A stretch of 63,972 bases of DNA, counting the filler, from Gonapodya sp. JEL0774 (lineage: Eukaryota), in NCBI GenBank assembly GCA_027604505.1. It is 4 parts of 4 records of this genome, joined end to end, with 100 filler letters (N's around TTAATTAATTAA, not from the genome) between each part and the next. Parts side by side here need not be neighbours in the genome. Positions count along the whole stretch, not along the records: positions 52,582 to 63,972 come from JADIIX010000360.1; 3 more parts are not named here. One strand, 5' to 3'. This document shows, one piece after another, positions 466 through 63,972 of the stretch (positions are counted from its first letter, which is position 1; the number at the start of each line of letters is the position of its first letter). Made by a program: the position numbers and the translations under genes. The notes beneath the pieces are model-generated. The model did no database searches, was not told the DNA's origin, and was given only the letters and a program-made list of their open reading frames with translations.

Positions 466-1812
466 ATGGCTACTTCAGATGGCAAGGCAACAACAACTCA
501 CGAGACCCAGGGAACCGAACAGGAAGCAATCTTGGATGCAACCAAAGCTATACTGGACGGTGACAATGCCGATTCCATGTTTATTGTGGACAATGTGGAG
601 GACGATAGCAGAGCGATTTCCAAAGATGCCGCTCCGATTGAGTACACACCATTATCCTTCGCATTGCTCTTTGTTGGGTGAGTCTGCGATGGCATCGTAT
701 GTTGCGTCCCGCTATTCTCGAATCTTTCGTTTTGCTTTGTGTTTCCACAGCCTCCTGTGAGTCTCGGCAAACTGCCATTGTCATCCGGTTTCGTCCCAAT
801 AATCACACTAACCACACTCGTTGCGTCGATAGTCTTGCCGTTTTCCTCGCATCCTTGGATCAGACAATTCTGGCAGTCGCGATTCCCAACATCATCACGG
901 ATTTCCAAACGTTCGTGGGAACTTCATGGATCTTCACTGCATTCATTCTGACCGCGACATGTGAGATTGGCCATCACCAAGTTCCCATCGCCACTTCAGG
1001 CTGATTGTGCCTTTATTTGCAGCCTTCATTCCTGCTTATGGAAAAGCTTGTGACATATTCGGTCGAAAAGCTGTCATCCTCTTCGCGATCGTCGTCTTTG
1101 AGGCCGGATCCGCCATCTGCGGCGCAGCAACAAGCATGAACATGCTCATTGTTGGAAGAGCTGTGGCGGGATTGGGAGGTGGTGGCATCTTCTCGCTCGT
1201 CCAGGTCATCATCAGCGATATAGTTCCGTTGGAACGGAGAGGGACGTATCAGGGACTTGTCGGTGGTGAGTGATAACAAAAGTGCTAGTGAGTTTCTTGT
1301 GCACTTAGGGTCTCACTCAAATGTGCACCCAACAGGTGTGTTCGGGTTGGCATCCGTGGTGGGTCCCCTCATGGGCGGAGCCTTCACGTGAGTTTCTTTA
1401 GCTTGTCAATGGTGCAACGAAGATCACACTCATAGCAGTTTATCTCGATGACAGTGATCACGTGAATTGGCGTTGGTGCTTGTGAGTACTAGTGTCGGAC
1501 GCGATCTCTTCTGATGCCACATAGAGACGCTGACACGGCCTCATATTATCTCAGCTACATCAACCTTCCTCTTGGCGCCTTCACCTTCATTGTGGTCGTC
1601 TTCTTGCTCAAGTTGCCCGTCGGTTCCGGTGATCTGAAGAGTCAAATCCGCCGAATGGACTTCATCGGAACCTTCTTACTCGTTCTCGGAATCGTTCTCG
1701 TTCTCGTCCCTCTGTCGGAAGGGGGTAACGACTACACGTGGGACTCTGGATTTGTGATCGGTTTGCTCATCGCTGGGAGTGAGTCGAATGTCCAGATACT
1801 CAGTAGAGTTAA

Positions 1813-1848
<36 letters not shown>

Positions 1849-17512: not shown

Positions 17513-17612
17513 NNNNNNNNNNNNNNNNNNNNNNNNNNNNNNNNNNNNNNNNNNNNTTAATTAATTAANNNNNNNNNNNNNNNNNNNNNNNNNNNNNNNN
17601 NNNNNNNNNNNN
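17513..17612. other. Assembly gap/linker (N44-TTAATTAATTAA-N44)
   Basis: Six-frame stop linker flanked by Ns; identical blocks at 35038 and 52482. Confidence 0.95.
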
Positions 17613-35037: not shown

Positions 35038-35137
35038 NNNNNNNNNNNNNNNNNNNNNNNNNNNNNNNNNNNNNNNNNNNNTTAATTAATTAANNNNNNN
35101 NNNNNNNNNNNNNNNNNNNNNNNNNNNNNNNNNNNNN
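35038..35137. other. Assembly gap/linker
   Basis: N44-TTAATTAATTAA-N44. Confidence 0.95.
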
Positions 35138-49282: not shown

Positions 49283-51304
49283 ATGCCTCGCCCGACTCTC
49301 GATCGTGACGAAAGCAACCTCACCGAACACGATGACGAAGACGAAGCCGCACGTAACGGTGATGGCGATGGCGAACAAGGTGATATTGAGGACGAAGAGG
49401 AAGACGTGCAGGAGGAGGTAGTTCAGGAAGATGACCAGGAGGAGCGTGAGTATCAGTGCTGTTGTTTCTCTGCATGGCTGAGCGACCGGAGCCTTGTTTA
49501 CGGAGCATGTCGCCACTATCTCCTCTCTCGACAATGCTCTCAGAATGAATTACAATCGCATGTGTGGTGGGGAGGGCCATGAAACGAGCTGGACATTGTC
49601 GTTCACTACCCCTTGGTGTTATCAATCAGCTGCAAATTTCCACAATCTGCATGGTCATCATCCTCGTCATTGCTATCTCATTCCTCGTTTAATACACTCA
49701 ATTACCTGTCCCACCGCAATTGCAGTTTCCTCGGACTCCTACGACTCGTCCGGCACCTCAGGAACGTCCTCTGCCATTTCGTGGATAAGTTGGTTCTGTA
49801 CCCTACCCGGTTCGTTCAACTGCATCGCAAGTTATTTGAACGATCACCTTCTCACATAGAAGTAAATCTTGTCCGTGGTCTTGATTATTCCATGTACTAT
49901 CACCGTGGCTGCCGATTCATACATGACGTTTCCTCGGGGATTGGTGAACCCCATGATTCTCCAGGTCACGACTTCTTTATTGAAGTACCCGAAGATTTCA
50001 TCGAAGACGATTTCAACCTCTGTGGGCTTAACGCCATTGTTCCACACTATAACGAGGCCCTCGACATGGTGCTAGATTTGGAAGTGGAAGAAGGAAGCGG
50101 AGACGGAGGTGAGTTGTCGGTAACGGTCCTCATTGCGGCAATGGGGTGACGGACTATAATTGGTCGCATGGAGAAAGAGTACTCTTGGGGCGGGCGTCGC
50201 GGGTTATTGCAGCAACTTCAATCGTGCTCATCCTTTCGAACCCCAACCTTTCTCCGCAGGTGACCCTCGGCCACCCACCCCGCCGACAACAGTTCTCCCC
50301 GACGGCTCCCGATCCGTCTCCCTCAGTCCGGCCCCTCATCCGACCAATACTGCCACCCCAACCACTCGACCTCCCTCTGCTGCCATTGACCACTCTGCCT
50401 CGCTCTTATATGCTCTCGTCCACGCACGCTACCTTCTGACCAAACCTGGTCTAGCCACGATGGCAGAGCGGTATGCAAATGGGGATTTCGGTACCTGTCC
50501 TCGAGTCATGTGCAGAGGTGCCAGCGTGGTGCCTGTGGGAAGGTACGAACAAGCTGGTGTGGAAGGCGTCAAAACGTGGTGTCCGAGGTGTGGGGATGTA
50601 TATGTGCCGAAGGAAGTGAGTGGTCAGCCAAACAATCTTGTTTCCCATTCCTGACAAGCCGTATATGAGTGAACTGCCTTTAAATCTCGCGTTTTTCCTA
50701 GACGAAATACCACACAGTTGATGGTGCATCTTTCGGTCCCACCTTCCCTCACCTCTTGTTCCTTACCTACCCCGAACTCGCTCCACCAGACTCAATCGCG
50801 CTCCCCGAATCAGCACGGCGGTCCTCGCCAGCCCTCGCTGGCACACCACAAACTCGAGGCTCGGGTATGACTCCCAGCAGCTCTAGTAATACATTGTTTG
50901 GATACGGGCAGAGTGCGGCACTGGCACAGGCGGTCCAGGGCAGATCGGGCAGAGCCACGTCTGATTCCGACTCTGGTCCGGGACAGCAGCCCCCGCCAAC
51001 GTCATCATCTGGTTCACGGAGGAGACCCGGAGCCAACCACTCGTCAGCCCCTACAGGCCCCGGGGCTGCTCCACTTGGTCAGCAATCGACACCAGATCAG
51101 TTCGTATATCAGCCAAAAGTATTTGGTTTTCGCATGTCTGAGCATGCACGAACTGGGCCGAGAATGGGGTGGCTGAGGTACCGTCCCCCTCTCGATGAAC
51201 CTTCCGTAGTGTCTGCGGGAACTGCGAATGGTGGTGCGCAAGTTCAGAGTCAGTGGAGGGGGTCCCATATTGTATCTGGAAGAGGCGTGAGAGATGTCGA
51301 GTAA
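49283..51304 (+). CDS. CKB1: Casein kinase II regulatory (beta) subunit
   Basis: SWISWFC, FFIEVPEDFIEDDFNLCGL, LYALVHARYLLT, FGTCPRVMC..CPRCGDVY, DGASFGPTFPHL, YQPKVFGFRM. Confidence 0.93.
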
Positions 51305-52481: not shown

Positions 52482-52581
52482 NNNNNNNNNNNNNNNNNNN
52501 NNNNNNNNNNNNNNNNNNNNNNNNNTTAATTAATTAANNNNNNNNNNNNNNNNNNNNNNNNNNNNNNNNNNNNNNNNNNNN
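52482..52581. other. Assembly gap/linker
   Basis: N44-TTAATTAATTAA-N44. Confidence 0.95.
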
Positions 52582-52599
52582 CACGATGGCTCAACATAC

Positions 52600-52712
52600 G
52601 AGGCGGTGGGGGTGGAGGCGGAGGGGGCGGTGGAGCTGCAAGGTAATACTGTGACATAAGTAACGCTTTCAAGGAAATACGCTGTTCAACTTACGAGGTG
52701 GTGGCGGTGGAG
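52600..52712 (-). other. Two orphan polyproline microexons (18 and 36 nt) downstream of DPBB gene A
   Basis: cag-CTCCACCGCCACCACCTC-gtaagt and cag-CTCCACCGCC...CCGCCTC-gtatgt; same phase-1 design as the stalk exons of the DPBB genes. Confidence 0.7.
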
Positions 52713-53007
52713 CTGGAGAGGAACAAATCGGGAATGACGCAAATAACGAGGACCCAAATCAGCTGATGCATCTCCCGATCACATGTTCCTAAATAGCTGG
52801 CATTCGCTCATTTAATAAAGTCCGAAAGAGGAAGACAAGGAGTTCGGGTTTTAGATATGATTGATATTTGAATCCATATTATTGTCTAATAGAATACTTT
52901 GGAGAAACGGTTCGGATGCCAGATCCAGAAGCCCCTTCGTGGTACTTATAAGTATACGCAGGTCTATTCTACTGTAAAAAATTTTCAGAGCAAGCTCGAT
53001 GAACCCA

Positions 53008-54511
53008 TCAACAACGCCACCACTGTTGAAGTGGTAGATTTCGCGAAGAAAAGGTCAGCGAAAAGCTTGGACAAACAGACGTTCCAATTCTGGTAAGACC
53101 CACCGTCACTCCACTCGTGACCACTCCAACACTCGTAGGAATCCCCAACGCATCCCAGACCGCCGGTGTGGTGTCCATATGACCGTACTCGCAGATCGCG
53201 TCTGGGCACATGTCCTTGATGACGGCGGTGGTGGTACGGCCAGTTGGTGCGTAGGAGATGCAGACTTGCACACCACACCAATCGTTGTTCATTTGGAGGT
53301 AGGTCTGAATGTGAGGGTAGAATTAGGATCAAGACACTAAGAGGCGGAGACGTTGGGCTGAAGACTTACTAAAGCGATGGCACGCTCGCCGTTTGAAATG
53401 CCACCAAGTTGCCAGCAGAAGCCCTGTCCTCCCTGATCGTTCAAATTCATTAGAAAGAGTAGTCAGCATAAAGATCAAATTTGACTCGAAAGCATGTGAC
53501 GTTTTGGTGCCACCGCTGCACAATTCCTGTACTCACGTTCGGATAGTAGTACGTAAGACGACCATTGTATGTCTGGCTAGTGGGTGGCGGTGGAGGCGGG
53601 GGAGCTGCAAAGAGGGATGCATAATCACGTGAAATTACTAACTCCAGCATATCATGTTTGAGACTCACGAGGTGGCGGAGGCGGGGGAGGGGGCGGTGGC
53701 GCTGAAAGGGGGATGATTTTCAGTAATAAACACGGTAAGTCTGGTTTTTTACCGAGACTCACGAGGAGGCGGGGGAGGGGGCGGCGGTGGGGGTGGTGGT
53801 GGCGGTGGTGGTGGGGGGGGTGGTGGCGGTGGTGGTGGGGCTGAAGTCCAAGATTCACTCAAAATTTGAGCCGAAATGAATGAAAAACAGAAGGTACTAA
53901 GACAACATACGTGCTGGCGTTGTTGTAGTGGTCGGTCTCGCGGTGGTGGTGGTCGTGTCGGGGACAACAGTTGTTGTGCTCGTGACGGGTGCGGCCGCAA
54001 TGGTCTCAGCAGCGTCCTGCGCCGCAACTTTGGCAGCCGGAGATGGCGAAGCAGCAGGCGGTGGTGCAGGTGCGACAGTCGCTGCGGCGTCTTGGGCCTT
54101 CGCTTGGGCAGCATCACTCGTGACGCCTGAGTCCACCGACGCTTGATTCCTCCTCGAAAGCGGGATTCCGGCCGCTAAGCCCAAAATAAGAACGAGTCCG
54201 AGCACTCCTACGAGTGCCAGAAGTTTCCGGCGGTGTTTCGGGTGGGTCAGGCTGCTCGCGGTCTCAGACGCTCGGAACCACATCGCTTCCGCCCGCCGGC
54301 TGAATACAGACCCTCGAGACCGCGATGGGACATCATCGACAGAAACTATTCCTCGAGGTGCGAATGAGCCTGTCGGTTCACCTCCCTGGGTCACTGGCGC
54401 TGGTCTTGCGGGTTCACGGGACCCAAACCCCCGCGGAACGTCCTCCGCCGTATCGAGATGGGGCTGCTCTACAATTTGACCCCAAGGTCGTGTGCTGATG
54501 GGCGAACTCAT
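53008..54511 (-). CDS. Type II membrane protein: TM, polyproline stalk, RlpA-like double-psi beta-barrel (expansin/loosenin-like) domain; gene A
   Basis: TM KLLALVGVLGLVLILGLAAGIPL; stalk exons of 78 and 33 nt; YNGRLTYYYPN-GGQGFCW..ERAIAL-WCGVQVCISY..TAVIKDMCP..C.YGHMDTTPAVW-WWRC*. Confidence 0.88.
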
Positions 54512-54852
54512 TTCCAACGTGTTTTCACGTGGAATTTTTATGTGCGGGCAAGGAGAAAACCTTTTTCGGGCAACGAGGGACAAAACAAAGCCTGAATCAT
54601 CAACTCGGGGGTGCTCGTCCCTGATTCCAATAAGAAGCCAAGCAAGCCATACCAGAAGCGGAAATTTAAATTGCCTTTCTATTTCTACGTATTTTTTGAT
54701 GACCTGCATGCATACTTTACGGAGATGGTACGGATTCCAGATCCCGCCGGACATACTTAAACTTTTCACACTTGTACCATGCTTGGCGGATTACGTCATG
54801 TGACTCAAAAGCGCTTGTTGAGTGCATGTTCCCAGCACATGCAGCCTCATAA

Positions 54853-56737
54853 TCAACAGCGCCACCACTGATAGAACGACAAGAGGCGTGGTGAACAAGT
54901 CTGAGTCAATTGGCTCTGTGGTGAGCCGCACAGATGACTTACGGTTACTCCGCTCGTGATTAAACCTGCACTGAGATCGATACCCAGCGCACTCCAAACC
55001 GCTGGTGTGGTGTCCATATGTCCGTAAGAGCAAATCGCGTCGGGGCACATGTCTTTGATGACGGCAGTGGTGGTCTTTCCCGTTGGCGCGTAGGAAATGC
55101 AGACTTGAACGCCGCACCACGAATTGTCCATCATGGTGTATGTCTAGATGCCAAAACCCAAAAGAAGAGATAGAATTGAATGAGGTCGAGGGTTCGAAAT
55201 AGTCCGTGACAATCGCTGGATAATGAATTACGGACCAGAGCGATTGCCCTCTCATCGTTTGATATACCTCCGAGCGTCCAGCAGTAACCTTCTCCACCCT
55301 TGCGTAGAGAAACAGCGTTGTAGTGCATGAGTTTGAGATGATTGTGAGATGAATTTGCGGTCGGCAACTTACATTGGGGTAGTAATACGTGAGACGACCC
55401 TGGTACACTGTTGAGGTACTCGAAGGTGGCGGTGGAGCTGATGACAAGATACATTAGAAGAGAATTCATCGAATGGGGCTGATGGACACTCACGGGGAGG
55501 AGGAGGCGGAGGAGGAGGCGGCGGCGGTGGTGGTGGGGGCGGAGCTGAAAAAATCGTCGAACTCTGTCAGAAGACTTGCAGGTTCATGCTACATCAGTGC
55601 AACCACACATACGGGGTGGCGGGGGAGGTGGTGGTGGAGGTGGGGGCGGTGGTGGGGGCGCTTTTGCGTTTGAAAGGACATAGGATAGTGGTAAGTGGCT
55701 CAGCGGTGGGCAATTATTTCACGGGGAACATACGTGGAGGAGGCGCTGAAAAACAGAGGGACATTAGCTCATTGCTAGATGACAATTTATTAGTATACTC
55801 ACGTGGTGGTGGGGGCGGGGGAGGTGGCGGCGGTGGTGGTGGAGGCGGCGGTGGTGGGGCTTCACGGAGTGGTGCGATCATGAGTTAAAACACCAACGAA
55901 AGCACCAAGCAAACGATACGAGCGATGAAAACGTACGTGGAGGAGGGGGTGGTGGTGGAGGTGGAGGCGGGGGCGGAGGTGGTGGGGGTGGGGTTGCTGA
56001 GAAACATTATAAAAGTATGTTGGAACACCTCTCGTCACGGATGGGTCGGGAAACAGTCAATACTTACGTGTTTCGGTTGTCGTTACAGGCGCAGGAGCCA
56101 CGATTGTCGTCGTAGCAGCTTGAATAACCGCCACGGTGGTTGCCGCCACTGGGGATGAGGTCGTAGCTGTCGTTTGCGAGATGACAGCGTCCTGCGCCGC
56201 GATTCCCGCTGCCTGAGAAGCTACCACAGGTGGTGGAGGTGGAGGTGAAGGTACGGGTTCGGGTGCCGATGCGACGGTCACTGTTGCATCCTGCGCCTTC
56301 ACGTCTGCTCCGGATCCGGTCGTGGAGTCAGACGCCAGGGACGACTGATTCCTTCTCGACAATGGGATTCCAGCGGCTAGTCCAACGATGAGAATCAGTC
56401 CCAAAACTCCGATTACGGCTAATAGCTTTCTCCTGTTCTTTGGTTGAGTCAGGGTACCCGCGGCTTCCAATCCCCGGGACACAAGGTTCCGCCCACTCGC
56501 GAGCGCAGACTGCCGAGATGGGACCGCATCAATCGTAGCATGCCCTCTGGAGGCAGTAGAAGCATCGGTGAAGTCGCTATCACGCGTCCAGGTTTCGGAT
56601 CTCGGCGTTGGTACCCTGCGACTGTTGGAGTCGCGTTCGTCGTAAAATCCGCGTGGGACATCCTGCGCCGTCTCCAAATGCGGATGCTCGTCAAGCTGAT
56701 GAGCGCCCCACGGACGCACGCTTGCCGAAGAACTCAT
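54853..56737 (-). CDS. Paralogous TM-polyproline-DPBB protein; gene B
   Basis: Same architecture as gene A; stalk exons of 60, 57, 12, 48 and 51 nt; DPBB nearly identical to gene A. Confidence 0.88.
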
Positions 56738-57450
56738 TGGCAAAGAGGGGAAAACGTGGTCGAAGGAAAAATTTCTGTTTTGAGACCAGACGGTACAAGT
56801 AAGGAATCGCCGTGCCAAGAAGGTCTCAGGAGACACGATCCCTGGCCCACCCTTGCAAGCAAAAGCGCGCGCGGGTCTCCGAATGTAACTAATTTGTATT
56901 CTACATGAAACTGCAGCTGGGAACTCAGCAGTATTTGTGTGGTTCCGAGTTTTCATATGTCAATTTGGATGCCGTTGATTTTGGAGATTGATGCCATCTC
57001 TTCGTCAGAATCCCTCTGTTAGAGAGTCGGAATGTCGTAAGAAAAGGGGCAAAGATTGTCCGGGAGATGCAACGTTGCATTTCATGGTTTGGTTGCGAAG
57101 GTGGTGAAGTGGTGACGTCATCAGGTCTCCGACATGAATCCATATCTGCGGCACGACATGAACACTTATTTGAGACCTCGATACATTATTAGCACTCCAC
57201 ACATTTGCGAATCTGTGAATTAGTGGTTGCTTTCCATGGTGGTGTCTCAGAGATTTTTCTCCCGAATCTAGAGATTCAAGTAAGTTCCGCAGTTGCCTCC
57301 CCAAAGCAAGAAGCGCATGAACTGTGCACGAACGGAACAAAATTATAACGTCACAAGTGATCAACGACTAAAAAACGAGGTGGAGAGTAATTACTATAAA
57401 CTTGAACTAAATAAAAAGCACCAGAACAAACGGCCTCGTTCCCCTAAAAT

Positions 57451-60400
57451 TTAGCGCGCGGCAGCTTCCGCCATCTTGCGCTCAAATTCGGATTCGAGCA
57501 TCTTGGGTTCATGCGGCGGATGGTTCTCACACTCTTCAATGTGCGACAGGAGATCCTTCTTTGTGATGACACCTTTGAGAAGGCCCGTATCCACAACTAC
57601 CACGTATCGTAGTCTGCGGAACAAACAACATAAATGAATACATGGAAAATACGGTCAGACAGACCATGGGACTCACCCAAGCTTGACGAAATAGTCAATT
57701 ATAACCTGTACGGATTGCTCGCTCTGCACACAAAACGGTGTGGTGTCGACCCAGCTCCTGAAATTCACCACTTGCTTGCCGCTGCTCGGTGTCTCGTCCA
57801 GATGCACCATACCAGCCCCCACAGTCCCTAACGCGACACCATCGCTCCCAACTTCGTTCTCTAAAAACGAACACGGTGTGGTCCCCTCGTGTCCATGGCC
57901 CCTAGCTTCTTCCACCGCACACCACAGATCACGCGCGCTGATGACACCGAGGAGCATGCCCTTACCGTCGATTATGGGATAGTGGTGGTAGGTGTGGGTG
58001 AGAAGCGTGCGACGGAGATCATCAAGGGTCGCACCATAAGATGGGAAGGAGGTGATTGAAATGAGGCCGCGCATAATGTCGGAGGCATGGTAAGGATGGA
58101 CGTAATCTAAGTGGGTGATATTGATATACAAGTTGGTCAAGAGTGACTTTTTCAAATCGGTAGGTGCCAAAGCAAACGGCAAACCTCACTCACCGATTCG
58201 AGTGCTAAGGTATGGCAGCTTGTTCACCGTGATGAGCCCCTCGTAGATGGACTCAGTTCCAAAAGCATCGCCGACCCATTTCGAAACCATAATTCCGAAC
58301 ATGATGGGCAAGACTTACCCACCCAGGAAATGAACACCAGCAACATCCCACGTGATCAGCACACATTCCACCGACAACGGTCAATATTTATGAATTACTC
58401 ACTATAGTCCAGCACTCCCGTCAATTCAAACACAATGACCGCCAAGCTCACCGTCATGCGCGTGACGCCACCCAAAGCCGCTGCGGCACCCACGAGGGCG
58501 TACAGCCCCGGTGAAATGCACTGCTGCTTTGGACTTGCGGCACTGCAGCGAGAGAAATACCAGTTGGTTGGGTCCGATTCTTGGATCGTTTGAATGACCT
58601 GGATGAAGGGAAGGATCGAGGTGAGAAAGAAGATGGTCAGAGTTGGTGTCTGAAGGGGGACCAAGCAGATTCAACACACCATGCCGAGAGCACGTCCAGC
58701 AAGTGCACCGATGGCGAGAGGGGGAAGGAAGATGCCCGCTGGGATTTTGATTCCGATGGTGAAGGTGAGGAGGAAGGCTTTCACCATGAAGGACCAGAGG
58801 AGCACGCTGGGGCAAAACGCAGCAAAAACAGTTGATCGAGCTCGCACAGTGGCAAAAAAACGGGATGTCGGAGCCACAACCACAATCTCAACTCACGCCA
58901 CGGTCTCGCTCACAGCCCCATCACCACACAACAACCCCTTAAACTCCTCATCAACCTCCTGACACTCCCTAAACAGGTTCCCTACCAACCGTCCCAGATT
59001 CGCCCTTGTCGTGAGCACGCCGTAACTCCACACAGCCGTCACGATGGTCACAGTGACCACATCGCGGATGGGCCATCGGCTCGCTCCGAGGTATTTGCGG
59101 ATCCGGGCCACGCGCATGTTGGCGTGGATCACGAAGGATCCCACGAGACCGCCGAGGATACCGAGAAGGATGAAGAAGGGAACGTCGTGGATGCGCCAGC
59201 CGATGGTGAAGTCGACTTCGTAGAGAACGATCCTAGGGTTGGAGTGAAGGTGCGTGGTGACGGGGTAATAAGGATGGGAATGAGTACAACACAGAGGTGC
59301 TTGCTACTTACTTCCCCGTTCCGAAAGGGTTGATCATCCTCAACGTGAACGCTCCAACGAGCGCACAAAAGAACGATCTGAAGAGTGCGGTGGGGCCAAA
59401 GAAGGTCGAGACTTCTTCGAGGGCGAAGAGCACCCCACCGACTGTGACGAATGACACAAAGGCGACAAGTGTTTAGGTCGCGGTCAGTCAGACTTGGGCC
59501 CAAACGACCAACTCATGGTAATGATAAAGGAGAACAAGGGTTCTGACGTACTTGGGGCCCCAAAGGCGACACTTTCGGGGAGAAACGGTGTTGGAAAGGT
59601 TGTCGTAACGACAGACATAAACACAAGGCACAAAACGCACCTCACTCTGAACGAATATTAAAAAAGCCGATTGGCAAGATGCATACGTCATAGTGGGTTG
59701 CACAGAGGCGAGGTGATCAGAGACGCTTCCTTGATGCAGCTCGAATACAAGCGCCAGTCCGCTAAGCGAACTTACCCCGCGGCACTTGCTGCAGAAAGGA
59801 TTTCTCGCCTTTTGGCTTCGTTCAGGTCGTATTTTGGGAACAACCTTTCATCGTGACCGGTATAGGGCACGTGTACGAAACGGTGATACGTTAGAACGCG
59901 TGAGTAGGTACGAGTCACGTCCTTCTCGCCCTCGGAAGCATAGACTCACTTGGTGGCTATATTGCCAATGGCACACGCAACGTGAACGAGCGGACCTTCT
60001 TTGCCGAGGTTCACGCCGGAAGCCGTACCGAGGGAGAGACCCAAGGTTTTGACGAACAGGGTGCTATGTATGATGAGGGGAAATGTAGGGAGCAAAGAGT
60101 GGATTAAAATCGACGTGGTACGACGGATTCAAGGTACGGAGTAGTGGGACGTACGGTACAGAGAGGAATTCATCGAGCACGAATCCGCCAAGGATGGTCT
60201 TGACTTCTGGAATGCCCGAGCCGGCAGCGTACGGTGCCAGGTACTGTGTGAAAAGAGTCAAAACATATCGACAGTCAGCAACTACATGATCATGTCTCAT
60301 CCAGACAGACCGATGCGAAACTCGAAATACTCTTAGTGATTACACCGATCGTTCACATCAACAAACCTTGACCATACCCGCTGCCGTCGCGCACATGGCA

Positions 60401-61233
60401 CACCCCACGAGTGTGTATGCGGCGAACCCGAACCAGAACTCGAGCGAAGGGTCACGCGACGGGTGGAATCGGGAGAAGTAGATACCCCACGTCGTCCAGG
60501 AACACGGTGCCGTCGGGTCTGCGAGTTGAAATTCATTGCGTCAAGCCAAGCAATGCTGAATCACTGGCGACATTGGTTCTTCAAGACACGCACCCTCGGA
60601 GATGGGACAACACGTCGCCTGACCCTTCCATACATTGGCCGCGCAGTACCCTTCCTTCAAATCGCTCAACCACTCCGATGCCACGTCGATAAAGGCCGCA
60701 AATACGGCGGCCACGACTCCAACGATGGTAACGAGAATCCATCCCTGGACAGCGTACATGCCCCGCGACACGAGTCCGCGGAACCCTCGTATGCGAAGCA
60801 CGGCACGACGGCGTAAAGACGCGCGGAGGAGGTCGTGAGACCAGTCGATGGACTCGTGAGATGCTGGGTGGGCACGGGTGAGTTTGGCGACGTGGGCGGT
60901 GTCGAAGGTGACGGGAGGTGCGCCTGACGTCGGTAAGAGAGAGTCTCTGGGATCGTCTGAATGCGTAGAGACCTCGGTTGTATCGGGCGCATCGCCAATA
61001 TTTTTGTTTCGAGATAGAAAAGCATCAACTCCGTGGTGTGCGGGTGGTCTCTGTCTCGGTTGTGTGAAAGGATCATTCGCATGCGGGTCGTCAGGGTGAG
61101 CGTCCGCGCGATGATATGCTGGTATCGATGCGGTGGCCGCACTTTCGGAGAGTGTGGATGATGCAGTGGAGAACGTGCCGTACACTCGACTCGAGTCGCC
61201 ATTGATGGATGACGTGGATCCAACAGCCGCCAT
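57451..61233 (-). CDS. GEF1: CLC family Cl-/H+ exchanger (Gef1/ClC-3-like) with CBS domains
   Basis: [40 protein letters not shown] (via microexons), [39 protein letters not shown], and C-terminal CBS repeats. Confidence 0.93.
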
Positions 61234-61852
61234 GTTCCGCAAAGAGAGCCAAAGCAAAGAAAGCAATGAAATCAATAAGAAAAGAAATCGATCCCGTGCA
61301 GCTTTCTCTTGGAAAAGAGCAGAGTCACTGAAATGACCGGGTGGGTTCTGATGATCGATGATCGTTTCCGTGGCTCGGGGACCCCTTTAAGTTATCTGTG
61401 TAAATTCGCCTTGCGATTTGCCGTGTCATAGGGGAGTTCTGTATCACAGTTTATCATTCACACAAACACATTACTGAACCAATCTATTAGTTCTTCGAAG
61501 TCTGACGATTGCTGGTCTTGGGGACCAGCCGCTCCCTATATTATATTAATATTACCATGTCCCTAGCAAAGCTTCTTCGTACTGGACAGCCTAAAAGATA
61601 TACACATAGCTCTTTTGGACAGTTTCAGCAGTGCACTGCATTGTTTTCCTTTCGAAGCGGGACGCACTCAACGAGAACCATTTCTCTGACCCATCTTGTG
61701 GGCAGTATGTCAAGTGACTTTTAACTGCGATTTCACAGAAATGATTCGTTTGGAGCATGTACTCACGTTCAGTTCTCAGCTGTGGGCAGTGCTGTGCGCA
61801 GTTATCGCAACATGTGGACAGTTTCTCGACAGCCCTCGCGTGAACGCCTGCA

Positions 61853-63136
61853 ATGCCCTCTGTTCCAACTCTTCCTTGGAGACGCTGGCTCCCACAACGC
61901 AAGAAGCACTCACTCTCAAAGCCCTCGCCTTTTCTGGCGCTCCCACTCGAAATTCTGCTCCTGATTCTGCAACACATCGAGTCGAGTTGGGCTCAAGGTC
62001 GCTTCCGACTCGGTCTCCCAGTCGCACTCATATCACGGGACATTCTACCGATCCTTCGTGATCCGGGTGCCATTGCCGATCGCGCCATTCGGCGTTTTGG
62101 AAACCCCCCTGGTGCTTTCATCAACGAGTGTTTCCGATTTCCCCAAATCGACCAACCTGTGATTGCAGCCATTGCAGTACGTGGCAACCAGGACTCTTTC
62201 CATATTGTTGGTCACCGTGATTGGGAGAAATGGGAGAGGATGGTTAATCACATCACACGTTTCAGTGGACTTTCAGTACTGAGGGATGCATTGCTGGTCC
62301 TTGCTTCAAGCGGAATAGTACCTAAGTACTCTTTTGGACCATATGATTCTATTTGGAGGGCTTTCCTTTCCCCGAATGACACGTACGTCCTTCAAGCGGT
62401 CCTCAGAAGCAATTCTTTCCGCTCATGGCGAGTCTTATTAGGACCTTTCAAAGAGGCCTGTGTGGATATGAAGAACTTGGTAGCTGCTGAGTTGCTTCTG
62501 GACAAAATGCTGGAGGGATATCATATTTCTGATCTTACCAACGACAGTGGATTCATCCACACAGTCTATGAGATCCTGGTTGTGTATCAACCCTCCAGTC
62601 GAGGCACCCAACCTCACCAGCAATACAAAAAAGAAAGAGCGTTCTATCTTTCCCTGACCGAACTTCTCATCAGCCGACAACTCCTATGTCCATCTGTCCG
62701 AGTACAGGGCTTAATGGGCTCAGGGTACGGGGGTTTGCATAATCCAACGCTATTTGAGGGCGCCTGCAGACGCCGTCATTTTGATTTGGTGAGAGCTCTC
62801 TTGAATATTGGTGTTCAGGACTGGAGATATGCATTGGTATTGGCAGCAATGTCGGATTGTGAAGAAATGGTGGAACATCTTGTTTCTCATGGTGAATCAG
62901 ACATAGCCTATGTCCTTCGTACTGCAAGAGGAACTTATGAGTGCTGTATATCTGCCCCGGTGGTTTGGGCCTTGTTGAAGGGTGTCAATGACAGAAACAG
63001 GGAGGATGTGAACAAAGTGTTGGACAATTATGTGAAATGGACAGCGTCACCATACCTGTGGACCACGATTAAATACTGGCGGCTGTTGGATCTGGCAAAG
63101 AGACTCCGAGCCAAGCCCGAAGAGCTCGATCAATAG
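61853..63136 (+). CDS. F-box + degenerate ankyrin-repeat protein, intronless
   Basis: FLALPLEILLLILQHI; LFEGACRRRHFDLVRALLNIG; ALVLAAMSDCEEMVEHLVSHG. Confidence 0.75.
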   Translation: MPSVPTLPWRRWLPQRKKHSLSKPSPFLALPLEILLLILQHIESSWAQGRFRLGLPVALISRDILPILRDPGAIADRAIRRFGNPPGAFINECFRFPQIDQPVIAAIAVRGNQDSFHIVGHRDWEKWERMVNHITRFSGLSVLRDALLVLASSGIVPKYSFGPYDSIWRAFLSPNDTYVLQAVLRSNSFRSWRVLLGPFKEACVDMKNLVAAELLLDKMLEGYHISDLTNDSGFIHTVYEILVVYQPSSRGTQPHQQYKKERAFYLSLTELLISRQLLCPSVRVQGLMGSGYGGLHNPTLFEGACRRRHFDLVRALLNIGVQDWRYALVLAAMSDCEEMVEHLVSHGESDIAYVLRTARGTYECCISAPVVWALLKGVNDRNREDVNKVLDNYVKWTASPYLWTTIKYWRLLDLAKRLRAKPEELDQ

Positions 63137-63420
63137 GGGAGGTGGGACAATAAATTGCGGGACATGACGTCTGATCTGCTATTATCTGAGTGTACTCGAG
63201 TGCGTTATGCGATTCTTTTAGTGTACGTAGTGCTTTGCGCTTTGGACTTTCGAGTTATATTATATGTTGCAAGTTCTCGCCGAGAGTCAGGTCAACTCGC
63301 GGATATTAATATATTATTCTCACATCGCAAGCAGTTTGACTCTTCTATCCAAAAGAATTGAAGTCAAGCGCAGAATCAAATTTCGCGGATCTCCCCCTGA
63401 ACGTGTGAAACCTCAACTGA

Positions 63421-63972
63421 ATGTGGATCAACCTCTCGACTTTCATTTCCGCGGTTCACTCGACTTACTGGGATCCTCCTGTCGATGATCCCTCACCACG
63501 CTCGATCTCTATCAAGGGTAACGAGGGCTGCAACTCAGATATCTCAAAATTCAGTATCTGCGAACTCCCGACTGAAGTTATCCTCGCTCTTGGCAAATAC
63601 CTGCCCTCCCGCCTGGGACTTCCCACACAATCCCTCAACACACGACTGCTCCCCATCTTCCGAGCTCCGTCCAGCATAGCTATTCGAGCACTCGCACACT
63701 ACCAGGATCCACTGGAAGCGTTGGTCTGTGAAGCGGGCCGATCGGATCTTGGGGCGTGTTCTGTCGTCGCGGCGATCTGCTCCTTGACATTGACCAAATG
63801 GAATGTGGGGATCCTCAACTCTCATTCAAAAGCCACCAAAGAGACGCCTCTCTCGGCTGCCGCCATGGGTGGAAATTCTCAGGTCGTGCGGACTCTGCTC
63901 CAGCTGGGAGCTGATGTTGATGCATGCTTCGGCCGGGCTCTCGCTGCAGCTGCGGTAGAAGGCCACTTGGAT
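63421..63972 (+). CDS. F-box-like + ankyrin-repeat protein, 3'-truncated by window end (absent from the ORF track)
   Basis: Open frame from ATG 63421: ICELPTEVILALGKYL; ETPLSAAAMGGNSQVVRTLLQLGADV; ALAAAAVEGHLD. Confidence 0.8.
   Translation, partial: MWINLSTFISAVHSTYWDPPVDDPSPRSISIKGNEGCNSDISKFSICELPTEVILALGKYLPSRLGLPTQSLNTRLLPIFRAPSSIAIRALAHYQDPLEALVCEAGRSDLGACSVVAAICSLTLTKWNVGILNSHSKATKETPLSAAAMGGNSQVVRTLLQLGADVDACFGRALAAAAVEGHLD

What the first reader, a model, noticed from the sequence alone, without database searches (positions are those of the whole stretch)
52600..56737. Membrane-tethered DPBB proteins with pure-polyproline stalks assembled from interchangeable microexons
Seen: in gene B the stalk exons (55996-55937, 55859-55803, 55745-55734, 55660-55613, 55544-55494) are 60/57/12/48/51 nt; in gene A they are 78 and 33 nt. 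All are multiples of 3 and phase 1-1, ending in C and starting with CN, so every junction recreates a CCN Pro codon. Full inclusion gives about 79 (B) and about 45 (A) consecutive prolines between the TM and an RlpA/expansin-like DPBB domain. Known: polyproline II helices are stiff rods, and DPBB/loosenin domains bind or loosen wall polysaccharides. Inference: a splice-tunable molecular ruler that sets how far the glycan-acting domain reaches from the membrane.
Basis: partly seen in the sequence, partly recalled or inferred. Interest (0 to 1): 0.82.

Follow-up and report, generated by a model that had tools for sequence, protein, structure and literature searches.

The report
Membrane-anchored loosenin-like proteins on polyproline stalks
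Two neighbouring genes of a chytrid-type fungus spell out runs of 45 and 79 prolines in small, interchangeable exons between a membrane anchor and a wall-protein-type (DPBB) head, a layout that would likely hold the head at a set distance from the cell membrane; whether splicing varies that distance could not be tested.

Summary
On the minus strand of the last contig in the window (52582-63972) lie two tandem paralogues. Gene B is 56737-54853 (10 exons, 413 aa). Gene A is 54511-53008 (7 exons, 352 aa). Each encodes a hydrophilic N-tail, one strong transmembrane helix, an S/T/A-rich linker, a proline run (79 in B, 45 in A) and a C-terminal six-cysteine DPBB domain. The proline runs are split over 5 (B) and 2 (A) exons of 12-78 nt. 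All are multiples of 3, phase 1-1, AG|CN...C|GT. Of 131 codons, 130 are CCN, with all four synonymous codons used. All 32 exon subsets of B stay in frame. A and B are old paralogues (dS about 1.8, dN/dS 0.07, introns unalignable), so the layout is maintained by selection.

A high-confidence model of a relative matches kiwellin, the loosenin PcaLOOL12, a papain inhibitor and expansin D1. Relatives in Gonapodya fuse the same head to chitin-binding or GH114 modules.

Public gene models break at the stalk. No RNA data, genome or relatives' DNA could be obtained, so the "splice-tunable" part is untested, and exon skipping is the rarest splicing variant in fungi. Most likely the stalk lengths are fixed per paralogue and evolve by exon gain and loss.

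The parts
54853..56737 (-). Gene B, 10 exons, 413 aa. Exons: 56737-56068, 55996-55937, 55859-55803, 55745-55734, 55660-55613, 55544-55494, 55437-55373, 55298-55236, 55143-54943, 54867-54853.
   Evidence: The model is 1242 nt, in frame, with GT..AG at all 9 introns. Exon 1 equals a 223-aa protein held with source NCBI. The DPBB exons are found independently by tblastn with P0001 and P0002.
56068..56737 (-). Gene B exon 1 (670 nt, ends in phase 1). It encodes a hydrophilic N-tail with the S-x-RPWG and DVPRGF motifs, the transmembrane helix and an S/T/A-rich linker.
56360..56425 (-). Gene B transmembrane segment (about residues 105-126), flanked by KNRRK on the N side and SRR on the C side.
   Evidence: KD19 maximum is 2.81 at residues 106-124. 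It is the only segment above 1.6.
55937..55996 (-). B stalk exon, 60 nt, phase 1-1 (P T P18).
55803..55859 (-). B stalk exon, 57 nt, phase 1-1 (P19), with an AAG acceptor.
55734..55745 (-). B stalk exon, 12 nt, phase 1-1 (P4).
55613..55660 (-). B stalk exon, 48 nt, phase 1-1 (P16), with an AAG acceptor.
55494..55544 (-). B stalk exon, 51 nt, phase 1-1 (P17).
54853..55437 (-). Gene B DPBB head, four exons (65, 63, 201, 15 nt), ending in WWRC and the stop codon.
   Evidence: 81-82% identical to P0001 and P0005 over 103 residues.
53008..54511 (-). Gene A, 7 exons, 352 aa. Exons: 54511-53911, 53840-53763, 53701-53669, 53604-53537, 53432-53370, 53304-53104, 53022-53008.
   Evidence: The model is 1059 nt, in frame, with GT..AG at all 6 introns. 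Supported by tblastn.
54158..54223 (-). Gene A transmembrane segment (about residues 97-118).
   Evidence: KD19 is 2.74 at residues 98-116.
53763..53840 (-). A stalk exon, 78 nt, phase 1-1 (P26).
53669..53701 (-). A stalk exon, 33 nt, phase 1-1 (P11).
53008..53604 (-). Gene A DPBB head, four exons (68, 63, 201, 15 nt).
   Evidence: 83% identical to B and 82% to P0001.
52600..52712 (-). Orphan pair of further Pro-frame phase 1-1 exons: 52712-52695 (18 nt, P6) and 52635-52600 (36 nt, P12), separated by a 59-nt GT..AG intron. They start 296 nt after gene A's stop and run into the contig end.
   Evidence: No upstream exon ending in phase 1 was found, so their status is unresolved.

Best explanation
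Two tandem paralogous genes of a Gonapodya-like (monoblepharid chytrid) fungus encode single-pass membrane proteins in which a 45- or 79-residue polyproline run, split over symmetric phase 1-1 exons, joins the membrane anchor to a C-terminal DPBB domain of the loosenin/kiwellin/expansin-D1 fold. The run is predicted to act as a stiff extracellular spacer that places a wall-polysaccharide-binding or wall-loosening head at a paralogue-specific distance from the plasma membrane.

Shown directly:
- the exon structure, phases and codon content;
- the hydrophobic anchor;
- the age of the duplication and purifying selection on the head;
- the DPBB fold of a close relative.

Inferred:
- N-in/C-out (type II) topology. 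This rests on 4 positive charges before the helix against 2 after it, six Cys in the head, and paralogues of the head that carry signal peptides.
- All stalk exons are normally included (constitutive, intron-by-intron splicing).
- The run forms a PPII rod of roughly 14 nm (A) and 24.5 nm (B) at 0.31 nm per residue, on top of an 80-97 residue S/T/A-rich linker.
- The head acts on chitin-containing or other fungal wall polymers.

On this reading the symmetric exons matter mainly over evolutionary time. Whole exons can be gained, lost or resized without breaking the frame, which gives paralogues of different reach (7, 45 and 79 Pro). They would not serve as a physiological splice switch.
For: Gene structure:
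- The gene models and phases are given.
- 130 of 131 stalk codons are CCN, using all four synonymous codons, and 9 of 9 exons have AG|CN..C|GT flanks. This fits selection on protein and splice sites and does not fit a simple-repeat artefact.
- Seven of the 9 stalk introns carry in-frame stops and one more shifts the frame, so the tracts must be spliced to reach the DPBB exons.
- Both ends of A and B are homologous to one annotated 321-aa Gonapodya prolifera protein with the same order of parts, P0001.

Age and selection:
- A and B have dS about 1.79 and dN/dS 0.073 over 101 codons.
- Among 120 intron pairs the highest z is 3.3.
- Third-codon positions show no clear shared pattern.
- The layout has therefore outlived complete turnover of neutral sequence.

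Membrane anchor: one segment each with KD19 2.8 and 2.7, and hydrophilic N-termini.

Fold of the head:
- A profile of the head against the PDB hits kiwellin 6ti2 at 4.7e-8, PcaLOOL12 9ce9 at 2.2e-7, papain inhibitor 5ntb at 1.7e-4 and EXLX1 7wvr at 1.6e-3.
- The AF2 model of P0005, which is 80-81% identical to A and B, has pLDDT 95.5.
- Foldseek gives TM 0.78-0.82 to kiwellin, PcaLOOL12, the Streptomyces papain inhibitor and expansin D1.
- An Asp and three Cys are invariant in 61 relatives.

Link to wall polymers:
- Relatives fuse the same head to three CBM18 chitin-binding modules (P0002, P0015) or to GH114 (P0009) through Pro-rich linkers.
- PcaLOOLs bind alpha-chitin better than cellulose (abstract of PMC9888185).

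Against regulated skipping: the stalk introns resemble the homology-validated ones, and exon skipping is the rarest AS class in fungi (passage).
Against: - No transcript evidence of any kind could be obtained, so inclusion of the stalk exons is inferred from sequence alone.
- The only complete annotated relative, P0001, has just 7 Pro. Its length (321 aa) is like the all-skipped forms of A (315 aa, P8) and B (337 aa, P5). A short-stalk product is therefore a real possibility.
- The symmetric, mutually compatible junctions go beyond what constitutive splicing requires.
- Topology is predicted only. The charge bias is modest (+4 against +2).
- The head's nearest structures include a protein-binding plant defence protein (kiwellin) and a protease inhibitor as well as wall-loosening proteins. 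Its biochemical activity is open.
- All Pfam matches of A, B, P0001 and P0002 are below the curated cut-offs.
- Long polyproline is not perfectly rigid (recalled), so the nanometre figures are upper estimates.
Confidence: 0.5

Rival explanations
1. The stalk exons are cassette exons, and regulated exon skipping produces up to 32 (B) and 4 (A) isoforms. The polyproline spacer would then vary in steps of about 1.2-8 nm, tuning how far the head reaches, for example between zoospore, germling and walled thallus.
For: - Every donor ends in C and every acceptor starts with CN, and all exons are multiples of 3.
- 32 of 32 subsets of B are in frame and end in WWRC.
- Two B stalk exons have the weaker AAG acceptor.
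- A 12-nt exon between 57- and 73-nt introns could be skipped as one 142-nt intron.
- The annotated relative P0001 looks like an all-skipped form.
- Schistosome micro-exon genes show that symmetric small exons can be used this way (passages of PMC4350168).
Against: - No transcript data exist for this locus.
- Exon skipping is the least common alternative-splicing class in fungi (passage).
- An AAG acceptor is also used at a homology-validated constitutive intron of the DPBB part (B intron 7).
- Symmetric phase is equally expected from exon duplication history.
- Different paralogues already provide different lengths.
Confidence: 0.18
2. The stalk exons are largely unused or decaying. The real products join exon 1 directly, or nearly directly, to the DPBB exon and carry only 5-8 prolines, like the annotated Gonapodya protein.
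For: - The direct join is in frame and gives 337-aa (B) and 315-aa (A) proteins that resemble P0001 (321 aa, P7).
- An orphan pair of stalk exons lies after gene A with no first exon. This shows that such exons can exist outside an intact gene.
Against: - With dS about 1.8 between A and B and unalignable introns, unused tracts should have lost CCN purity and splice sites. Instead 130 of 131 codons are CCN and 9 of 9 exons keep both splice signals.
- Three Gonapodya prolifera models of this family are 5'-partial or truncated exactly where a stalk would lie. P0001's short run may therefore itself be a modelling artefact.
Confidence: 0.1
3. Same architecture, different job. The proteins are wall-integrity mechanosensors or wall-membrane tethers. 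The Cys-rich DPBB head is fixed in the wall, the linker plus polyproline act as a rod or spring, and the conserved ~100-residue cytoplasmic tail signals inward. This is analogous to yeast Wsc1/Mid2.
For: - The N-terminal tail is conserved between A, B and P0001 (S-x-RPWG; DVPRGF is shared by A and B; A and B are 54% identical over tail plus TM). This suggests a cytoplasmic partner.
- The order head, glycosylatable rod, single TM, tail mirrors Wsc-type sensors (PMC2885430 and PMC9024836, seen as listing and abstract starts only).
Against: - There is no WSC domain and no known signalling motif. The tail matches no Pfam family and no named Atlas cluster.
- Topology is the reverse of Wsc1 (type II against type I).
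- In relatives the head is fused to enzymes and chitin-binding modules in secreted proteins. That fits an effector module better than a sensor.
Confidence: 0.15
4. The DPBB head is a protein binder or protease inhibitor displayed on the cell surface, like kiwellin, the Streptomyces papain inhibitor or the Rhizoctonia RsRlpA effector. It is not a polysaccharide-acting module.
For: - The best structural and profile matches include kiwellin and the papain inhibitor (TM 0.79-0.82).
- RsRlpA is described as a protease inhibitor in the title and abstract start of PMC7662947.
Against: - The head is fused to CBM18 and GH114 modules in relatives.
- It matches the loosenin PcaLOOL12 equally well over the full length (TM 0.78/0.79, rmsd 2.1).
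- The DPBB Asp is invariant.
Confidence: 0.07

Closest known systems
Fungal loosenins / loosenin-like proteins (PcaLOOL12, PDB 9CE9) and expansin domain D1
   Same: Single DPBB domain of about 100 residues. The profile E-value is 2.2e-7 and TM is 0.78/0.79 with rmsd 2.1. The Asp in the D-x-CP motif is conserved. The domain is extracellular and disulfide-rich.
   Different: Loosenins are small secreted proteins. Genes A and B add a cytoplasmic tail, a transmembrane anchor, an S/T/A linker and 45-79 prolines. There is no CBM63 (D2), so they are not expansins. Pfam DPBB_1 is below its cut-off for A, B, P0001 and P0002.
Gonapodya prolifera JEL478 hypothetical protein M427DRAFT_55074 (P0001) and its paralogues (KXS12369.1, KXS12371.1, KXS14991.1, CBM18x3-DPBB P0002, GH114-DPBB P0009)
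   Same: P0001 has the same order of parts: an N-tail with RPWG, a TM helix, a T-rich linker, a Pro run and a DPBB head ending in WWRC. The head is 81-82% identical. Two partial models lie on one 286,942-nt scaffold with accession numbers two apart, which suggests a tandem cluster there too.
   Different: P0001 has only 7 prolines. Among 120 family proteins the longest Pro run is 9. Three of the Gonapodya models are partial or truncated at the point where the stalk would lie, so their true stalks are unknown.
Schistosoma micro-exon genes (MEGs)
   Same: The coding region is built from very small symmetric exons, so that exon choice cannot break the frame (passages of PMC4350168).
   Different: MEGs are unrelated in sequence, restricted to platyhelminths and encode variable secreted peptides. 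Their alternative splicing is documented. Here the exons all encode the same residue, so only length could vary, and no splicing data exist.
Yeast Wsc1/Mid2 wall-integrity sensors
   Same: Single-pass plasma-membrane proteins with a Cys-rich head on a stiff, glycosylated Ser/Thr-rich stalk that reaches into the wall (PMC2885430 and PMC9024836, listing and abstract starts only).
   Different: They have a different head (WSC domain) and opposite topology. Their stalk is Ser/Thr-rich, not polyproline. There is no homology.
Hydroxyproline-rich rods of plant and green-algal wall proteins (extensins, pherophorins, class I formins, PERKs). Recalled, not tested here.
   Same: Extracellular polyproline-II segments are used as spacers or wall anchors, in some cases on membrane proteins.
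   Different: Those are Viridiplantae proteins with Ser-Pro(n) repeats that are hydroxylated and arabinosylated. Here the run is uninterrupted Pro, in a fungus, and joined to a DPBB head. Modification is unknown.

Membership tests
DPBB (RlpA-like double-psi beta-barrel) superfamily | Six-stranded double-psi beta-barrel fold | tested here: met
   The AF2 model of P0005 (80-81% identical to the heads of A and B) has pLDDT 95.5. Foldseek gives TM 0.76-0.82 to kiwellin, PcaLOOL12, the papain inhibitor and expansin D1, all at probability 1.00. The test was made on a relative. The spliced A and B proteins themselves could not be submitted.
Pfam DPBB_1 (PF03330) / Barwin (PF00967) / KWL1 (PF24300) | Score at or above the curated gathering threshold | tested here: not met
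   The largest exon of A gives DPBB_1 14.3 bits (cut-off 28.8) and KWL1 13.8 (cut-off 27). The same exon of B gives no hit. The P0001 and P0002 heads give KWL1 15.8 and 22.3 bits and Barwin 14.5 bits. More distant relatives found with the head do pass: P0010 scores DPBB_1 64.3 and P0011 31.9.
Expansin / EXLX | Two domains: D1 (DPBB) followed by D2 (CBM63) | tested here: not met
   Both proteins end about 104 residues after the start of the head, at WWRC and the stop codon. Only D1 of the expansin structures is matched (TMt about 0.4). The definition comes from a passage of PMC12779228.
Loosenin / LOOL | Single DPBB domain with the conserved Asp | tested here: met
   The head aligns with PcaLOOL12 over 86-98 residues, including the D-E-C-P motif. 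The Asp is invariant in 61 sequences.
Loosenin / LOOL | Small secreted protein that binds or weakens cellulose or chitin networks | not testable with these tools
   The activity needs recombinant protein. The architecture differs: A and B are membrane-anchored with a long stalk.
Kiwellin | KWL1 profile above threshold; larger barrel with extra loops and an N-terminal kissper region | tested here: not met
   KWL1 is below its cut-off. Kiwellin alignments need an 11-residue insertion and cover only the C-terminal 70-odd residues. TMt is only 0.48-0.64.
Micro-exon genes (MEG-like organisation) | Run of small symmetric exons (multiples of 3) between conventional exons | tested here: met
   9 of 9 stalk exons are multiples of 3 and phase 1-1, with sizes of 12-78 nt.
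Micro-exon genes (MEG-like organisation) | Documented alternative use of the exons in transcripts | not testable with these tools
   No RNA holder was listed and no genome is held.
Type II (N-in) single-pass membrane protein | One hydrophobic helix, no cleavable signal peptide, positive-inside bias on the N side | tested here: inconclusive
   There is one segment with KD19 2.7-2.8 and the N-terminus is hydrophilic. Charge is +4 before the helix and +2 after it, read from the sequence. Orientation is inferred and was not measured.

The most novel reading that the evidence does not exclude
A fungal 'polyproline ruler' gene design. A wall-acting DPBB head is tethered to the plasma membrane by the longest uninterrupted proline runs seen in this family (45 and 79, against at most 9 in 120 relatives, and at most 27 in the human proteome). 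The run is written in mutually compatible phase 1-1 exons. Exon choice, during splicing and/or by exon gain and loss between paralogues, would then set the reach of the head in 1-8 nm steps, giving up to 32 isoforms from gene B alone.
Probability: 0.2. Interest if true: 0.8.

Novelty: new variant of a known kind. Interest (0 to 1): 0.6.

Why it matters
- If the stalk is made as encoded, these are membrane-anchored members of the expansin-related (loosenin-like) protein world. Searches of the held literature found no description of such proteins. They would point to wall remodelling or sensing done from the membrane side in an early-diverging fungus.
- Seventy-nine consecutive prolines would also be an extreme natural test case for eIF5A-dependent translation and for polyproline as a spacer.
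- The symmetric-exon layout gives a directly testable case of protein length being adjusted in whole-exon steps.
- On the practical side, public gene models in at least two genomes break at this stalk: exon 1 only here, and partial DPBB-only models in Gonapodya prolifera. The family is therefore systematically mis-annotated.

Tried and rejected
Searches and jobs that gave nothing usable:
- RNA evidence: no RNA holder was listed for 52960-56800. This is no evidence either way.
- Whole genome: none is held for this window.
- Relatives' DNA: a metagenome scan with the head-exon alignment gave 88 pattern matches, none confirmed. A degenerate DNA pattern for GH[ML]DTTPAVW gave 0 matches.
- The single-sequence AF2 model of P0001 was poor (pLDDT 43.6) and was not used.
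- The Atlas search with the N-tail gave only unnamed clusters at 0.90 or below.
- Earlier findings of this scan: nothing for this genome, this sequence or these words. A looser word search returned unrelated micro-exon arrays in animals.
- The sigma-70 promoter and terminator scan is irrelevant to a eukaryote.

Ideas considered and rejected:
- Recent tandem duplication of exon-intron units. Among 120 intron pairs the highest z is 3.3. Among third-position strings one of 36 pairs reaches p about 0.005.
- A microsatellite or assembly artefact. All four Pro codons are mixed and splice signals are intact.
- A link to the giant-virus inserts reported for Gonapodya. The expansin genes in that paper belong to another organism (passages of PMC5294986).
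- A cytosolic profilin- or SH3-binding polyproline (C-in topology). The head has six Cys, and its paralogues carry signal peptides with chitin-binding or GH114 modules.

Literature searches that found no description of this design:
- 'polyproline' + 'microexon': 6 papers, none relevant by title or abstract.
- 'polyproline, stalk, cell wall, membrane-anchored, fungal': 1 irrelevant paper.
- 'DPBB, transmembrane, proline-rich, fungi': 1 irrelevant paper.
- 'Gonapodya' + 'expansin': 5 hold the terms, 4 listed, none on this family by title or abstract.

Full report
**What the window is**

The 63,972-base window is four contigs joined by N44-TTAATTAATTAA-N44 linkers at 17513-17612, 35038-35137 and 52482-52581. 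The finding lies on the last contig, 52582-63972 (11,391 nt). That length matches the 'longest contig' recorded for a database protein identical to part of it. The sequence is eukaryotic, with short GT..AG introns. Its nearest named relatives are Gonapodya prolifera JEL478 and Gonapodya sp. JEL0774, which are monoblepharid chytrid fungi.

**Checking the observation**

Reading the minus strand and assembling exons by coordinate gives two complete tandem genes.

| Gene | Span | Exons | Length |
|---|---|---|---|
| B | 56737-54853 | 10 | 1242 nt, 413 aa |
| A | 54511-53008 | 7 | 1059 nt, 352 aa |

B has 60, 57, 12, 48 and 51 nt. A has 78 and 33 nt.
- Each stalk exon is preceded by AG and followed by a standard donor (GTAAGT, GTACGT, GTGAGT or GTATGT).
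- Each begins with C-N and ends with C, and each is phase 1-1.
- Full inclusion gives exactly 79 consecutive prolines in B (226-304) and 45 in A (201-245).
- Two more exons of the same type (18 and 36 nt, separated by a 59-nt intron) sit at 52712-52600, against the contig end.
- In the nine exons 130 of 131 codons are CCN (CCA 49, CCT 30, CCG 29, CCC 22). The exception is one ACC.
- A regex for the exon signature over both strands of the whole window returns these nine plus one 15-nt match inside a long ORF at 35709-35695.
- Seven of the nine stalk introns contain in-frame stops and an eighth shifts the frame. Only B's 57-nt third intron could be retained in frame.
- All 32 exon subsets of B remain in frame and end in WWRC.

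**Are the models real genes?**

Both ends of A and B are homologous to a single annotated 321-aa G. prolifera protein, P0001. P0001 has the same order of parts: an N-tail with S-x-RPWG, a hydrophobic helix, a T-rich linker, 7 Pro and a C-terminal domain ending in WWRC.

tblastn with P0001 and P0002 finds only the predicted DPBB exons of A and B in the window. The breaks fall at the predicted intron positions. That validates three introns per gene. The stalk introns are 56-77 nt with the same donor types and CAG or AAG acceptors, and they resemble the validated ones.

A and B are old paralogues.
- The heads are 83% identical in protein but 75% in DNA.
- Over 101 codons dS is about 1.79, dN is 0.13 and dN/dS is 0.073.
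- Introns cannot be aligned. Among 120 intron pairs the highest z is 3.3.
- The third-position strings of the stalk exons share no clear pattern.

Neutral sequence has therefore turned over completely, yet both genes keep pure CCN tracts with intact splice signals. I read this as selection for translated polyproline. This is an inference, because slippage and gene conversion could help to maintain the tracts.

**The protein**

- Each exon 1 encodes a hydrophilic N-terminus with no signal-peptide-like start.
- Each has one strongly hydrophobic segment: KD19 2.81 at residues 106-124 in B and 2.74 at residues 98-116 in A.
- The segment is flanked by KNRRK or KHRRK on the N side and SRR on the C side.
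- An 80-97 residue linker follows, with 29% Ser+Thr and 21-28% Ala.
- The head has six Cys.
- Paralogues of the head in Gonapodya carry signal peptides.

I therefore infer N-in/C-out topology, with stalk and head outside the cell.

**The head**

- Pfam scores are all below the curated cut-offs for A, B, P0001 and P0002.
- A two-sequence profile of the head hits PDB kiwellin 6ti2 (4.7e-8), 9ce9 (2.2e-7), papain inhibitor 5ntb (1.7e-4) and EXLX1 7wvr (1.6e-3).
- 9CE9 is the loosenin-like PcaLOOL12 of Phanerochaete carnosa (passage of PMC12779228).
- An exhaustive HMMER search of 1.84 billion representatives gave 119 relatives at E <= 0.001.
- An alignment of 61 of those relatives has an invariant Asp and three invariant Cys.
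- With that alignment AF2 models P0005 at pLDDT 95.5. P0005 is 80-81% identical to the heads of A and B.
- Foldseek places the model with kiwellins (TM 0.78-0.82), PcaLOOL12 (0.78/0.79, rmsd 2.1), the Streptomyces papain inhibitor (0.79/0.77, rmsd 1.7) and expansin D1 domains.
- The Atlas searches agree.

There is no expansin D2 domain.

In relatives the same head, always C-terminal and always preceded by a short Pro run, is fused to other modules.
- Three CBM18 chitin-binding modules in P0002 and P0015.
- A GH114 domain in P0009.
- An unnamed repeat in P0006.
- Another N-tail plus TM anchor in P0043.

PcaLOOLs bind alpha-chitin better than cellulose, and the authors propose a role in fungal wall processing (abstract of PMC9888185). 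These links make a wall-polysaccharide role the best guess. Kiwellin-like protein binding or protease inhibition remain possible.

**How unusual is the stalk?**

- Among 120 family proteins (P0001, P0002 and P0005-P0122) the longest Pro run is 9.
- A survey of the human proteome puts the longest spans in a 12-27 class (table passage of PMC3556072).
- At 0.31 nm per residue for a PPII helix (textbook value, recalled), 45 and 79 Pro correspond to about 14 and 24.5 nm. Single exons add 1.2-8.1 nm.
- Long polyproline is not fully rigid (recalled), so these are upper estimates.

**Annotation**

- The protein collection holds, with source NCBI, a 223-aa protein that is exactly exon 1 of B (P0004).
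- It holds no entry that contains the DPBB exons of A or B.
- In G. prolifera JEL478 three family models are defective at the same place.
  - KXS12371.1 (P0005, 'partial') starts just after where the stalk would end.
  - KXS14991.1 (P0123, 'partial') starts with what looks like read-through of an intron ending in ...A-PPPPPP. That is what an AG|CN acceptor gives when read through.
  - KXS12369.1 (P0008) starts inside the large head exon and runs into the next intron.
- KXS12369.1 and KXS12371.1 share a scaffold and have accession numbers two apart, which suggests a tandem cluster there too.

This is indirect support that stalk regions like those of A and B exist in Gonapodya and defeat gene callers. 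I could not read that DNA.

**Mechanism**

The best-supported reading has three parts.
- A and B are type II membrane-anchored, loosenin-like DPBB proteins.
- A linker plus a polyproline rod holds the head at paralogue-specific distances from the membrane, where it binds or loosens chitin-containing wall material.
- The symmetric exons reflect, and permit, evolutionary change of stalk length by whole exons (7, 45 and 79 Pro in three family members; 2, 5 and at least 2 stalk exons in three loci).

No RNA run was listed. Fungal splicing favours intron retention, and exon skipping is the rarest class (passage of bioRxiv 10.64898/2026.05.18.725946).

Three further rivals remain.
- A short-stalk or relic reading is kept alive by P0001's resemblance to the all-skipped forms (315 and 337 aa). 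The preserved codon and splice-site purity argues against it.
- A Wsc1-like sensor or tether reading is prompted by the conserved cytoplasmic tail.
- A protein-binding or protease-inhibitor role for the head is prompted by its kiwellin and papain-inhibitor matches.

**Comparison with known systems**

- The head belongs to the DPBB superfamily and is closest to loosenins. It is not an expansin, because there is no D2. It is not a kiwellin, because the profile is below threshold and kiwellin has extra loops.
- The exon design works like schistosome micro-exon genes, which use small symmetric exons so that exon choice cannot break the frame (passages of PMC4350168). It is unrelated to them, and here only length could vary.
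- The overall layout works like yeast Wsc-type sensors (listing and abstract starts only) and like plant and algal hydroxyproline-rich rods (recalled), without homology.
- Four literature searches found no description of a membrane-anchored DPBB protein on a polyproline stalk, or of polyproline written in symmetric exons.

**Verdict**

This is a real and unusual gene architecture, and a new variant of a known protein kind. Its striking functional interpretation is plausible in part but unproven.

Noticed in passing
window 52600-52712 (-), with 52771: An orphan pair of Pro-frame phase 1-1 exons (18 and 36 nt) begins 296 nt after gene A's stop and runs into the contig end. No upstream exon ends in phase 1. 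An ATG at 52771 opens a signal-peptide-like ORF that reads the first tract in the Ser/Thr/Ala frame and then stops. This could be an alternative 3' cassette of gene A, a decayed third paralogue or an assembly break in repeats.
   Followed up: partly
window 17513-17612, 35038-35137, 52482-52581: The window is four separate contigs joined by N44-TTAATTAATTAA-N44 linkers. Neighbourhood arguments hold only within 52582-63972.
   Followed up: yes
window 56737-56068 and 54511-53911 (-): The cytoplasmic tail is conserved. S-x-RPWG at residues 5-11 is shared by A, B and the Gonapodya protein P0001, and DVPRGF is shared by A and B. The tail matches no Pfam family and no named Atlas cluster.
   Followed up: partly
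window about 56290-56190 and 54090-54000 (-), linker regions: A short motif [KA]-A-Q-D-A-x-x-T-[VI] occurs twice in the extracellular linker of both A and B and once in P0001. Its meaning is unknown.
   Followed up: no
window 55802-55746 (-): B's third intron is 57 nt, a multiple of 3, and has no in-frame stop. It is the only stalk intron whose retention would keep the frame. Retention would insert 19 non-proline residues in the middle of the rod.
   Followed up: partly
P0004; P0005, P0008, P0123 (Gonapodya prolifera JEL478): Public gene models of this family break at the stalk. Here only exon 1 of B is on record as a 223-aa protein. In G. prolifera two models are flagged partial and one is truncated at or after the stalk position, and two of them lie on one scaffold.
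   Followed up: partly
P0009, P0002, P0015, P0006, P0043 (relatives): The same C-terminal DPBB head is fused through Pro- or Ala-rich linkers to GH114, to three CBM18 chitin-binding modules, to an unnamed Trp/Cys repeat, or (P0043, unnamed source) to another N-tail plus TM anchor with Cys-rich modules.
   Followed up: partly
window 57673-58182 (-), 61853-63136 (+), 63421-63972 (+), 50160-50654 (+): Neighbouring ORFs are a CBS-domain ORF upstream of gene B, two ankyrin-repeat ORFs and, on the previous contig, a casein kinase II beta subunit fragment. None has an evident link to the wall.
   Followed up: partly
window 1812-1844, 1907-1916, 1999-2022: A G33 homopolymer run, a 10-N gap and a C-rich run lie within 210 nt on the first contig. 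This is probably a sequencing or assembly trouble spot.
   Followed up: no
window 54545-54515 and 56760-56745 (-): CACGTG- and CACGTT-type motifs lie just upstream of the start codons of A and B. They might be a shared promoter element.
   Followed up: no
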